A stretch of 64,000 nucleotides of DNA from Takakia lepidozioides. Its lineage: Eukaryota > Plantae > Bryophyta. The notes below the pieces were generated by a model. That model worked only from the letters and a program-made list of their open reading frames with translations, did no database searches and had not been told where the DNA came from. Numbering within the stretch: the stretch's first letter is position 1; each line of letters opens with the position of its first letter. Location: assembly GCA_030704615.1 (NCBI GenBank), contig CM060733.1, forward strand, positions 33,976,001-34,040,000. The letters are read 5' to 3'. A program made the position numbers and the translations under genes. Below are positions 56,201 to 62,049 of this stretch, piece after piece.

Positions 56201-56949
56201 CTTCATCATGATTCATCATCATCTTCCCTCAAAATGACCCACTTCTATTTTGACTTTGCCACTTTTGTTTTTGAGAGGAGGTAGGGCAAAACTCCATCAT
56301 CGTCCGTCTTTCCGCATCCATGGGCAGACATTTGTTTCTCCTTCCCCATTGTCATCTCCACTCCCCTACTTCTTTCAAACTCAACACCATCATGTTCCTC
56401 GAAAGACAATATAGTAGGAAATTGAGTTATCACAACAACAAGGACAATTAGCGTATGCAATGGGGGAATTCAACAAATCCTAATTCTTCCCATGGATACT
56501 TTTCCATTCTCACGGATTCAAAGCTACAATAGAAGGAGTGGTGAAAACTAAGATTGATAGACTATTATAGCCGCGTTAGGGGTGGCGGGCACGAGTAGGG
56601 AATTCCAAAAAGGCCTTGATGTGAAATGCAGCGCAATTCACTTGATCAGATGCCAATTCAATTGAATTGCGATGCCAATTCAATTTAACTAACCCTAATT
56701 TGCAATTCAATTGAATTGTAATCTATAATTTTTAACGCAGTTTTGTATTTAATATATATAATATATTATCATGTATATGTATATGTATATGTATCGTATA
56801 CACATATACATACGAGAGTATAAGCTGAATATACATGCTGGCCCGTCTATTCCTGCTGCCCGTCCATCCTTTGCTTGTGGTAAGGCCTAAGTCACGACAT
56901 GAGTCGCGTAGCCTAAATGAGAGATATATACTACACATATATACTAGTA

Positions 56950-57196
56950 GAGGTATCGTCATTAGGTTGTAGCCCTGTTTGATATATCTACAGAGGTATA
57001 GTATTTCATTTTACAAGAAAAGTTGGCCAAATTAATCTATATTTATGCGGAGGTATCGTCATGAGACAGTAGCCCTGTTTAGTATACCACCAGAGGTATA
57101 GCGCCTGACTTACAAAGAAACCTGGTCAAATCAGCCTATATGCAGGTTGAGGTATCGTTATGAGGTAGTTGCCCTGTTTAGTATACCTACAGAGGG
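56950..57196. repeat. ~100-bp tandem repeat, 2.5 copies, just inside the left TIR
   Basis: gaggtatcgt(c/t)at...gccctgttt...agagg recurs at about 56950, 57050 and 57149. Confidence 0.85.
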
Positions 57197-57604
57197 ATTG
57201 GCAACGTACGCATTCTTATCTCTGTTTTTATCCCAGTCCTCGCTTGTTAGATTTTACAACTGTTCATCGTGTAGCACTTGGCTACATGATTGTCTATTGT
57301 TTCTGGTTTACTCAATAAGAAGAGTGGGATAGAAATGTCAAGTGAGTTTTCATGGTACGTGTCATGGTTGGGTGGACAGGAAGAGGCCAAGGAAGAGGCA
57401 GCAGCAGAGCTGACACATTTGGTAAGGCAACCGTGTCCATCCTGAGTATGAAGGATGCTGCACCCTCGGAAATACAAGATGCTTCAAGTAAGTTCAAAGA
57501 GCTTTCTTCTCTTTCTGGTGTGCTGGATATGTATGCGGAGGACAACTAATATCACCTTAGGTGCCAAGGGAGAAACAAACAACCAGACCCTATTTCATTT
57601 CATT

Positions 57605-57708
57605 TCTCTCTCTCTCTCTCTCTCTCTCTCTCTCTCTCTCTCTCTCTCTCTCTCTCTCTCTCTCTCTCTCTCTCTCTCTCTCTCTCTCTCTCTCTCTCTC
57701 TCTCTCTC
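57605..57708. repeat. (TC)52 microsatellite
   Basis: Read directly from the sequence. Confidence 0.98.
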
Positions 57709-59027: not shown

Positions 59028-59177
59028 CTTCATAGGAGTGGGCATGTGGCTTGCAAGTGTTGGGCTGCCAATAACAAACCCACTACAACGTTGCACTACA
59101 ACCATAATCTCATCACTATTGCAGAACTCAGCATTCATGCTCTCGATTCCCACTCCAGCCTTTCAAATTCCTCAACT
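59028..59177 (-). pseudogene. Captured exon fragment of a flavodiiron protein (FLV / diflavin flavoprotein), flavodoxin domain
   Basis: Minus-strand translation S*GI*KAGVGIESMNAEFCNSDEIMVVVQRCSGFVIGSPTLASHMPTPMK followed by a GT donor. It matches the Flv motif GITKAGVxVES.N.E...GFxIGSPTLGGHxPT and has two stops. Confidence 0.8.
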
Positions 59178-59920
59178 TCCATTCAGCATCCCATGAACCC
59201 CACATGCAGCCCGAGTGTTATTACAAGCACGTTATGTGCTTTGGTAAATACTGTTGTGGGAATGAGGCAAAGCCCTCAAACCTTGGCCAAATGTTTATGC
59301 AAACCTCCTTAAACTGCTTGTGAGCTAAATGGGTTTGATGTGCATGCCAGGGCTAGCTCCATCTCATTTTTTGGGGGACCCTTTGGGAGACAGATGGCTT
59401 ACTCAGAAGTGCTTCAGCTTCCTTTGATTCACTGGCAAAAGAAATATGGCTAGCTCTGAAAGAAACAGACAATTTCAAACCTCACAATTGATGAATGGCT
59501 TCCCCTGCATCATCATGTACTCCCCTGGCACTAGTATCTGGCCCCCATGACACAACCCCAGAGAAAACAAAAGACATGTTCATTTCGAGAATTATCTCCA
59601 ATAATCTTGTTTCGATACTCTTACAAAGGTATCATGTTGCAATTGGGCTGTGTGTTCGATAGAGAGTTTAATATATCAACTCTTAGACGTTGATACTCTT
59701 ACAGTGGTATCATGTTTGGTATATGTACATAGCCATATATTGGCACTATAAGGGCTTGGCAGTATGAAATTGGTTAGTGTCTCAAGGTGCAGATGAAACA
59801 TGCTAACATATTTAGATTGTAAGCAACACCCACCAGTCAAACTCATCCTCAGAAGAGATTGATACACAAAAATTTCTCAGGGTCGTTGGTGCGCAGGCTT
59901 TTGTCAAGGGCTTGATATCA

Positions 59921-60786
59921 TCATAAAGGTGTTTCAGAACGTGTGGCTTCAATGTGTTGTTTTATAAGAGAGTGCTCTACTGCAAAATCAGATCGAATTC
60001 GTAAAGGTGCTCCAAACTTGGAAACTGCATCGTGATATCCTTTTAAAATGGTTTTTTCTTTCTTGTTTCTTGCAACGTTCGCCCATAAAACAAAATGAGA
60101 GGCCCCATCAATGCCAGCATGTACTCGAAGACCAAACATAATCAATTTGTCATAAGCTGCACCACGAATTGTATACATGTTTTAGTTTGCCTACAATTTT
60201 GTGCGATATGTAATACAAGAAAACGTCTTGCATGTGCATCTTCAAAGAACATTAAGATGCATGAGATAAAATACTTACAGTCAATGTGCCATAGAGCCAT
60301 AGGCATTGTCACATTATACTGAGTCATTTGAATTGCCTGTGCCCTTCTCCTACGCTCATAATGGTAGGGTGAGATGATTTTCAAAGCTTCCCCCACCTTC
60401 CTTCGAGGAATCCGCCAATTTGACCTCTTTAAGGCAGATTGCACTGTTCTCATTCCCCAATTTGACCCATTCTCTTCAATAGGAAGTAACTCTTGAATCT
60501 TTTCACACAAGCGTTGGACACTCAATTCATGATGAACTTTGAAAGGAGACCCTTGGACTTCTGATAGCAATCTTCTCAATGGTCGTACATCATCAAAAGA
60601 AAGGGCAGTGGCGATTGATTTCATTGTGGCACCCTCATTCAACATTGCTTCCACATAAAGTACTAAATCATCCACTACTTTGTCACCATCCAAATGGTTG
60701 TTTTCCATGCTTACATGATCTGTCTTATCTCTGCTTAATAGCCCCAGTGCCAATGCCTTCGACCTTGCCCTTGTTGTAATTGTTTG
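59921..60786 (-). pseudogene. IS3EU-like / integrase-core DDE transposase, spliced, C-terminally deleted
   Basis: Splicing intron 60278-60157 (GT..AG, 122 nt) joins ORFs 60142..60753 and 59921..60178 in frame. The product has an HTH (EGATMKSIATALS), NWGMRTVQSALK...YNVTMPMALWHIDSYDKLIMFGLRVHAGIDGASHFVLW...FGAPLRIRSDFAVEH. It stops before the expected third catalytic Glu motif. Confidence 0.85.
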
Positions 60787-62049
60787 CTGTTAATTCTGTA
60801 GTCACTGCATCCACTCACACACTCCCCATAGGACTTACGTCACTAAAGTTCACATAGGCTATCAAGTAGATGAACCAAATGTACTTTGAAACAACAACTA
60901 CTATATCCTAAAATGTATTAGCAAACCACAGTACACAGTGTGGGCAGGTTGAAGACAAACCATGTGATCAAGCTCTTTCTTTCAGTGTGTGTGTTGAGGA
61001 GCGTTTGGTAACCCACTCTACTACCCCTAAAGTTCTCTCCTCAAAACTCATGAGTCACCAGCACGTACACAAGAACTACAACTTTAGCTAAAATGATATC
61101 TTTATCAATGATTGGGGGAACTCATGCCAATATGGGAATGTGCTTACTCATGGGCAGATCTTGTCATTTGGTGATCCAAGAAGGCTTCCATTATACATAG
61201 CGCCACCACCGCTCCACCACCGCTCAACCCTAAACTTGTTGTTGCATTCTTCTCTCGTTACTTCTCGTCCTCCAACTGATTTGATCATTTCACTTTTAGG
61301 GCACCTCTGCCCCAAAAACCCTTCATCACTTCATTTCTCTCTCCCTTTCCCTCGCTCTCGCTCTCTCTCTAGTATATATCTCTCCTTTAGGCTACGCGAC
61401 TCATGTCGTGACTTAGGCCTTACCACAAGCAAAGGATGGACGGGCAGCAGGAATAGACGGGCCAGCATGTATATTCAGCTTATACTCTCGTATGTATATG
61501 TGTATACGATACATATACATATACGTATATATGATAATATATATATATATATATATATTATATACAAAACTGCGTTAAAAATTATAGATTACAATTCAAT
61601 TGAATCGCCAGTTGGCAATTCAATTGAATTGCAAATTAGGGTTAGTTCAATTGAATTGGCATCTGATCAAGTGAATTGCGCTGCATTTCACATCAAGGCC
61701 TTTTTGGAATTCCCTACACGGGCAGTGTGGCTGCCGTGAGTACCCGCCTCCACGTCCTTCCCACACCGTCCCCTCGTCATTCTCGCCGGGCTCAAGTTTG
61801 AGAGATGACTTGTCCTGACGAATTGGAATTTTTCCACATGGCAGATATCGAATCGTGGCTAGCCAGCCGCGACCTGCTAGCGGGTGCAGGTGCCGGGCTC
61901 TGCGGTTGCGGCTAGCTGCAACCTCTAATGTATGTGTAAAAACGTCACGACTACCTCTAAATGTGTGTGTAAACAGTCTATGACTCACCTTCGAGATTCA
62001 ATCTAATCAATGGTCATGATCAATTTAAAAATTATATTTTATTATTTCC

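What the first reader, a model, noticed from the sequence alone, without database searches (positions are those of the whole stretch)
56596..61716. IS3EU-like DNA transposon with ~340-bp TIRs, 6-bp TSD and a spliced integrase-core transposase in a land plant
Seen in the sequence: long near-identical TIRs (TAG...CTA termini), flanks CACGAG/CACGGG, and a transposase hidden in two ORFs that a 122-nt intron joins into WHIDSYDKL...HAGIDGASH...RIRSD. Established: this WHID..KL / HGxIDG / RxRSD pattern is the IS3/IS481/retroviral-integrase-fold family rather than any classic plant TIR superfamily (hAT 8-bp TSD, MULE 9-11, CACTA 3, PIF 3, mariner TA). As I recall, the IS3EU superfamily has 6-bp TSDs and TA-starting termini and was described from animals and fungi. 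Inference: this is a bryophyte lineage of that group with unusually long, MULE-like TIRs. It may be undescribed and could reflect ancient retention or horizontal transfer.
Basis: partly seen in the sequence, partly recalled or inferred. Interest (0 to 1): 0.88.

Follow-up and report, generated by a model that had tools for sequence, protein, structure and literature searches.

The report
Defective GingerRoot transposon in seed-free plant
This 5.1-kb stretch is a broken copy of a cut-and-paste jumping gene of the GingerRoot (IS3EU) group, already described in mosses and clubmosses in 2019; it has unusually long end repeats and likely belongs to a recently multiplied family whose other copies still carry the part of the enzyme that this copy lost.

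Summary
In detail: TIRs of 338/347 bp with TA..TA termini, flanks CACGAG/CACGGG, and an integrase-core transposase (Pfam PF24764) split by a 122-nt GT-AG intron that one RNA-like contig splices out exactly. The novelty claim fails. The element is a GingerRoot: described from Selaginella, mosses and animals in 2019 (PMC6839031: 6-bp GC-rich TSD, TA..TA ends, captured gene fragments) and joined with IS3EU in 2023 (PMC10045372). Exon 2 matches the printed Selaginella DDE query at 30 of 67 residues without gaps (by eye). This copy has lost the third catalytic Glu and the C-terminus; contigs of the same species continue into the missing motif, lie at about 25 times flank depth and show many different flanks at both tips, so it is a deletion derivative of a young multi-copy family. 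It also holds a LINE endonuclease piece and probably three captured host-gene pieces. Differences from the described family: TIRs 2-3 times longer, and evidence of splicing. A tree puts it in a clade whose sister group holds two named trebouxiophyte algae, favouring old green-lineage retention over transfer from animals. The scan earlier noted fungal IS3EU/GingerRoot copies on other DNA.

The parts
56590..56595 (.). Left copy of the 6-bp target-site duplication (CACGAG)
   Evidence: 5 of 6 match to the right copy
56596..56933 (+). Left TIR, 338 bp, starts TAGGGAATTCC; holds repeated CAATTCAATTGAATTG palindromes (likely transposase binding sites, inferred)
   Evidence: many unlike flanks end at this tip
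56950..57195 (+). Subterminal 99-bp tandem array, 2.5 copies; length varies among family copies
   Evidence: 'goes back 259' joint at depth 543 in X1
57380..57421 (+). 42-nt exon-like piece between AG and GT; probably a captured host gene fragment (inferred)
   Evidence: sequence; short high-depth RNA-like contigs in X6 and X9 cover 57380-57412 and run on unlike sequence
57605..57708 (.). (TC)52 microsatellite
58347..59008 (+). Non-LTR retrotransposon (LINE) endonuclease fragment nested in the element; left border not fixed, right junction at 59008/59009
   Evidence: Pfam PF14529 E 2.3e-6; 71% copy at 40075-40631; loose ends at 59008/59009
59032..59178 (-). Piece about 95% like a single-copy, apparently transcribed locus; probably a captured host gene fragment (inferred)
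   Evidence: the same variant letters at depth 61.6 in X1 and in a 1624-nt X6 contig (8 differences in 147 nt)
59415..59746 (.). Internal segment shared (85%) with the small family member at 30112-30425
59837..59924 (-). Probable captured 3' end of a host gene; resembles (recalled, not confirmed by a tool) the C-terminal tail of plant aldo-keto reductases
   Evidence: variant at depth 60.9 in X1 and 90 in X6, X6 contig with loose ends at 59837 and 59910; phmmer against PDB found nothing
59925..59928 (-). Deletion junction that removes the third catalytic Glu and the C-terminus of the transposase
   Evidence: tblastn match ends at 59930; contigs in X1, X4, X5 leave the window at 59928 and run into the GSSTH motif; others leave at 59924
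59928..60156 (-). Transposase exon with YDKL, HAGIDG and RIRSD (second catalytic Asp)
60157..60278 (-). 122-nt GT-AG intron, phase 1, just after the first catalytic Asp
   Evidence: spliced out in X6 contig 29
60279..60804 (-). Transposase exon: 5' leader from an AG acceptor at 60805, ATG at 60708, helical N-terminal region, WHID (first catalytic Asp)
   Evidence: 36% over 135 aa to the full-length relative P0123, E 2e-15; X6 contig 29 covers 60279-60804
61370..61716 (-). Right TIR, 347 bp, ends GGAATTCCCTA
   Evidence: 16 unlike flanks at 61716 in X4
61717..61722 (.). Right copy of the 6-bp target-site duplication (CACGGG)
   Evidence: junction contigs with 0 differences in X1 and X4
29740..30842 (.). 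Second, 1103-bp non-autonomous member of the family with about 300-bp TIRs and the same termini, no TSD

Best explanation
This is a defective copy of a GingerRoot (IS3EU/GingerRoot) DNA transposon in a seed-free land plant, likely a bryophyte, that likely inserted by cut-and-paste, leaving a 6-bp duplication, and whose transposase gene has lost its third catalytic residue, so it would move only with enzyme from a sibling copy. Shown: TIRs, termini, 5/6 TSD, intron and its splicing in one RNA-like contig, loss of the Glu region here and its presence in sibling contigs, many different insertion flanks. Inferred from the IS3/retroviral-integrase family: the D-D-E enzyme binds the repeated palindromes in the TIRs, nicks at the terminal TA-3' ends and joins them to target DNA with a 6-bp stagger that host repair fills in. 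The family appears to have multiplied recently (about 25 near-identical copies, inferred from contig depth) and to carry host gene pieces, as described for Selaginella GingerRoots.
For: PF24764 hit. 30 of 67 residues identical without gaps to the Sl-GR-005 query printed in PMC6839031 (by eye); the SL_GR rows of its Supplementary File 1 share W.MDSY-DKL and RSDFA.EH. P0155, by eye 80 of 88 identical to row SL_GR-014, matches the window at 44.9% over 69 aa, E 9e-20 and lies with it in a 21-row set at 98/94 support. Full-length relative P0131 is 42.7% identical over 211 columns, has D166, D223, E258, and its model matches retroviral integrases and IstA/TnsB/MuA (Foldseek E 6e-5 and up). Termini, 6-bp GC-rich TSD and 5.1-kb size fit the 2019 description. 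Contig depth 1354-1516 inside against 33-56 in the flanks, 1-3 differences per 310-472 nt. Host multicopper-oxidase gene groups with Ceratodon rows at 98/93 and 97/98.
Against: The TSD has one mismatch, and the second copy in the window has none (AGCGTC/ACCTTT, 3 of 6). TSD length could not be measured over other copies: no genome was held and loose ends are not paired. TIRs are 2-3 times the described length. The printed GingerRoot sequences were compared by eye only; none of the 21 'land' rows carries an organism name. Contig depth is no true copy number, and X1-X4 are one sample that may be the window's source. That X6 is RNA is the tool's guess. The structural model is of a relative, with mean pLDDT 61.7 and low TM-scores over the whole chain (0.13-0.23).
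Confidence: 0.94

Rival explanations
1. The long TIRs belong to a MULE-like or other TIR family and the integrase-core gene is captured cargo (a Pack element).
For: TIRs of about 340 bp are MULE-like in length; the element does hold other foreign pieces; the small copy has no transposase and no TSD.
Against: No 8-11-bp duplication (lengths 2-12 tested); TA..TA termini and a 6-bp TSD are exactly those of GingerRoot; the transposase region lies at the same high depth as the rest of the element; no other transposase found inside.
Confidence: 0.03
2. It is an undescribed plant lineage of IS3EU, distinct from GingerRoot, recently transferred from animals or fungi.
For: Longer TIRs and a 99-bp tandem array not mentioned for GingerRoot; only 45% identity to the Selaginella sequences; 124 of 159 tree rows are of the other (largely HKL-motif) type, one named from a hydrozoan.
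Against: The window row lies with the Selaginella-like P0155, and the sister set holds Coccomyxa and Trebouxia proteins; the 34-row set is parted from 21 other rows at 100/99. Read-through at the same intron site is seen on both sides.
Confidence: 0.03
3. It is a relic of an LTR retrotransposon or provirus integrase and the inverted repeats are incidental.
For: Fold matches are retroviral integrases; weak PF00665 rve hit, E 0.044, under its cut-off.
Against: Inverted not direct terminal repeats, a spliceosomal intron in the core, no gag, RT or RNase H, sharp multi-copy ends at both tips.
Confidence: 0.005

Closest known systems
GingerRoot (Cerbin et al. 2019, PMC6839031), Selaginella lepidophylla, mosses, animals
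   Same: TA..TA termini, 6-bp GC-rich TSD, size inside 3.9-12.9 kb, integrase-related DDE core with W.(I/M)DSYDKL and RSDFA.EH motifs, captured gene pieces, seed-free plant host.
   Different: TIRs of 338-347 bp against 100-150 bp; a 99-bp subterminal array; a spliced RNA-like contig over the core, whereas no DDE reads were found in S. lepidophylla (though they were in two mosses); this copy lacks the third catalytic residue.
IS3EU superfamily (Repbase; PMC10045372, PMC12730594)
   Same: TA..TA termini, usually 6-bp TSD, same transposase lineage (IS3EU/GingerRoot, 99% bootstrap in PMC10045372).
   Different: Fungal TET+ families end TAYGG..CCRTA and carry TET/JBP and alpha-kinase genes; here the ends are TAGGG..CCCTA and no second element gene was found in this copy.
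IS481EU / prokaryotic IS481 and IS3
   Same: Integrase-like DDE core without an HHCC motif upstream.
   Different: IS481EU has TIRs mostly under 50 bp, TNT..AYA ends and TSDs of about 4, 15 or 25 bp in parabasalids.
Pack-MULEs
   Same: Long TIRs and captured host gene pieces.
   Different: Different transposase and TSD length (recalled 9-11 bp; not present here).

Membership tests
IS3EU/GingerRoot | Termini 5'-TA...TA-3' | tested here: met
   TAGGG...CCCTA in both copies; unlike flanks start right at these tips
IS3EU/GingerRoot | 6-bp target-site duplication (mostly), GC-rich | tested here: met
   CACGAG/CACGGG, 5 of 6, best of lengths 2-12, p about 0.005; the second copy shows none, and other copies could not be measured
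IS3EU/GingerRoot | Terminal inverted repeats (100-150 bp in Selaginella; over 30 bp in fungal IS3EU) | tested here: met
   TIRs present, 338/347 bp, longer than the Selaginella range; length is a family trait, not a stated limit of the superfamily
IS3EU/GingerRoot | Integrase-related DDE transposase of this lineage | tested here: met
   PF24764; 30 of 67 to the printed Sl-GR-005 query by eye; groups with Selaginella-like P0155 at 98/94
IS3EU/GingerRoot | Complete D-D-E triad (autonomous copy) | tested here: not met
   Only the two Asp are in the window; sibling contigs continue into the motif before the Glu. This makes the copy non-autonomous; the 2019 paper counts 23 of 77 intact elements without a DDE motif
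IS3EU/GingerRoot | No HHCC, YPYY or GPY integrase motifs around the core | tested here: inconclusive
   No Pfam hit on exon 1 and no HHCC seen by eye in it; the C-terminal side is deleted here
IS3EU/GingerRoot | Placement in a tree with Repbase IS3EU and published GingerRoot sequences | not testable with these tools
   Repbase is not held; the paper's rows could be read but not entered; P0155 served as a stand-in
MULE/Mutator | 9-11-bp TSD and MuDR-type transposase | tested here: not met
   2 of 9, 3 of 10, 4 of 11 matches; no such Pfam hit in 6 ORFs scanned
IS481EU | TNT..AYA termini, TIRs under 50 bp, TSDs of about 4/15/25 bp | tested here: not met
LTR retrotransposon | Direct LTRs, gag-pol with RT | tested here: not met
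   inverted ends, no RT or gag

The most novel reading that the evidence does not exclude
A still-active GingerRoot family with 340-bp TIRs: about 25 near-identical, transcribed and spliced copies drive hundreds of non-autonomous derivatives and carry host exons, and the lineage has been inherited with the same intron positions from green algae to land plants. It would be the first IS3EU/GingerRoot whose transposition could be tested in a living plant, and would move the plant lineage back to the base of Viridiplantae.
Probability: 0.3. Interest if true: 0.55.

Novelty: new member of a known kind. Interest (0 to 1): 0.27.

Why it matters
As a finding it is a useful annotation of a rarely annotated superfamily, not a new kind of element. 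Two leads have some value: a young, apparently expressed family could allow a first transposition assay for IS3EU/GingerRoot (the papers read here report none), and the algal sister clade bears on whether plant GingerRoots are ancient holdovers or transfers from aquatic animals, a question the 2019 paper left open.

Tried and rejected
No whole genome was held, so copies and TSDs could not be collected. The ESM Atlas gave no result for three sequences. phmmer against PDB found nothing for the 22-aa suspected aldo-keto reductase tail or for P0131; the reductase reading stays a recollection. No listed holder run is on record as RNA; X6 and X9 are guesses. No contig showing the empty site was among the rows shown (412 and 43 loose-end rows were not shown), which proves nothing. 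A motif search for the third catalytic region in all six frames of the window found no true hit. The host could not be placed below 'seed-free, nearest named rows moss': no liverwort or hornwort row was among the 120 listed of 1021 hits. Paper searches for IS3EU with 'moss' (2 papers), with 'green alga' (4 papers), with bryophyte terms (no listed paper held IS3EU), and Ginger+transposon+moss/hornwort/liverwort (17 papers) listed nothing on algal or long-TIR GingerRoots (listings only). Searches of earlier findings by sequence and by place were blank.
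Full report
Observation. The element spans 56596-61716 (5121 bp). Its TIRs (56596-56933, 61370-61716) align with 321 matches, 13 mismatches and 17 gap columns and hold repeated CAATTCAATTGAATTG palindromes. The ends read TAGGGAATTCC...GGAATTCCCTA. The flanks CACGAG and CACGGG match at 5 of 6; no other length from 2 to 12 gives a near-match, and the chance of >=5/6 at one length is about 0.005. 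The one difference lies in a CCG context on the other strand and may be a methyl-cytosine deamination (inference). On the minus strand a 122-nt GT-AG intron (60278-60157) joins WHID to S-YDKL without a stop. The second exon hits Pfam PF24764 rva_4 at E 7.5e-12.

Support from sequencing runs. Ten runs were listed, eight holding part of the stretch; four (X1-X4) are one sample that may be the window's source. All are contigs. In X1, single contigs inside the element have depth 1354-1516 and 1-3 differences per 310-472 nt, against 33-56 in both flanks: about 25 near-identical copies, with the tool's warning that depth is no true copy number. Summed depth at the TIR tips reaches 35,000-100,000, which suggests hundreds of shorter relatives. 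Unlike flanks begin at the tips in 14+14+4 contigs on the left (X1) and 16 on the right (X4), so these are true mobile ends. One 832-nt contig of X6 (RNA by the tool's guess) skips exactly the 122-nt intron, begins its match just behind an AG at 60805 and has 39 further letters upstream, as a spliced transcript would. An intron-free relative, P0123/P0131, independently reads WHMDSYDKL across the same joint.

This copy is defective. tblastn with relative P0001 matches only to 59930, and the region with the third catalytic Glu is nowhere in the window. Contigs in X1, X4 (depth 1419) and X5 leave the window at 59928, and their loose letters, translated by hand, run into the GSSTH motif that precedes the Glu; the spliced X6 contig also ends its match at 59928 with 38 letters left over. 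So most siblings, and the transcript, have the part that this copy lost. By comparison with P0131 (D166, D223, E258; 42.7% over 211 columns), the window keeps about 220 residues with both Asp.

What else is inside. An ORF at 58347-59309 hits PF14529 (LINE-type endonuclease, E 2.3e-6), has a 71% copy at 40075-40631 and stops matching other copies at 59008. Three short pieces (57380-57421, 59032-59178, 59837-59924) match other contigs that run on into unlike sequence; for the last two the variant letters lie at single-copy depth (61.6, 60.9) in X1 and in X6 contigs. I read them as captured host gene pieces (inference). The last resembles the tail of plant aldo-keto reductases (recalled; one search found no match). 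A 99-bp array lies at 56950-57195. A second family member of 1103 bp at 29740-30842 has the same ends and about 300-bp TIRs but no TSD, which counts against a clean rule but fits an older or rearranged copy.

Host. The multicopper-oxidase gene at 32295-36750 has its best identities to Diphasiastrum (77%) and Ceratodon (74%) for one exon, and in a tree of 31 rows (30 picked from the 120 listed) lies with the Ceratodon rows at 98/93 and 97/98. No liverwort or hornwort row was available, so 'seed-free plant, probably bryophyte' is as far as the data go.

Identity. PMC10045372 (passages and section 3.3 read) states that IS3EU has TA..TA termini and usually 6-bp TSDs and that IS3EU and GingerRoot form one lineage at 99% bootstrap. 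PMC6839031 (parts 1-5 of 7 of the text, and Supplementary File 1) describes GingerRoot from Selaginella lepidophylla: 6-bp GC-rich TSD, TA..TA ends in 72 of 77, TIRs 100-150 bp, 3.9-12.9 kb, gene fragments in 22 of 77, and hits in 18 moss and 3 lycophyte species. Its printed DDE query matches exon 2 at 30 of 67 positions without gaps (by eye). Its other supplementary tables (species lists S5, S6) were not held and may already name this host's lineage. PMC9804982 (passage) lists GingerRoot among eight plant superfamilies. PMC12730594 (passages) gives fungal IS3EU ends. bioRxiv 2021.09.26.461848, PMC9860276 and bioRxiv 2026.05.01.722228 were seen as passages only and add nothing beyond citing the family.

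Relatives. A profile search gave 2477 proteins at E <= 0.001, of which the best 150 were listed. In a FastTree of 159 rows the window lies in a 35-row set (98) apart from 124 others. An IQ-TREE run on 55 rows (34 of those 35, P0143 dropped as short, and 21 picked from the 124) gave 100/99 for that split, 98/94 for a 21-row set with the window and P0155 (by eye 80 of 88 identical to SL_GR-014), and 99/94 for a 12-row sister set. My labels 'land' and 'algal' were taken from the first tree, so their clustering is no test; only two rows of the sister set are named, Coccomyxa subellipsoidea (P0151) and Trebouxia sp. (P0225), and none of the 21. In 10 of 13 algal-side and 9 of 21 land-side rows the called protein runs into Y(D/E)KL or a variant from unrelated residues, and 5 and 6 rows read V just after the NQ (or NV) motif instead of R/K-IE: the marks of gene calls reading into introns at two shared sites (inference). 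This favours long descent in the green lineage over recent transfer from animals or fungi, but the tree is unrooted, short (143 columns) and thinly named.

Mechanism. A model of P0131 (pLDDT 61.7 overall, mostly 70-90 in the core) matches retroviral integrases, IstA, TnsB and MuA. From that family I infer two-metal nicking at the TA-3' ends and strand transfer with a 6-bp stagger. This copy cannot supply the enzyme; it could be moved in trans. Whether the deletion came before or after insertion is not known.

Verdict. The longer TIRs, the young spliced family and the algal sister clade are modest extras. Interest 0.27.

Noticed in passing
window 29740-30842: 1.1-kb non-autonomous member of the same family, TIRs of about 300 bp, same termini, no TSD; a palindromic 110-bp element (29617-29726) lies just to its left.
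   Followed up: partly
P0151, P0225: Coccomyxa and Trebouxia proteins fall in the sister set of the plant-type GingerRoots, with signs of the same two intron sites; not found in print by searches.
   Followed up: partly
window 58347-59008 and 40075-40631: Two pieces of a high-copy LINE family (endonuclease domain), one nested in the transposon.
   Followed up: partly
window 23027-23497 (-): DDE_1 (pogo-type) transposase fragment, Pfam PF03184 E 5.2e-6.
   Followed up: no
window 32295-36750 (+): SKU5-similar multicopper oxidase gene with at least 8 exons; used to place the host.
   Followed up: yes
window 43485-45920 (-): 812-aa Ser/Gly-rich open frame without Pfam hit, probably a large exon of a host gene.
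   Followed up: no
window 61717-61724: An X6 contig from another insertion site shares the first 8 flank bases with this site before it diverges, a hint of target preference.
   Followed up: no
window 62111-62213: 51-bp tandem repeat in the right flank, variable and multi-copy in X1/X4: likely another repeat.
   Followed up: no
window 9677-10369 (-) and 19040-19855 (+): A transposase-like fragment (hAT-like by recall; no Pfam hit) and a PPR-like fragment (by recall).
   Followed up: no
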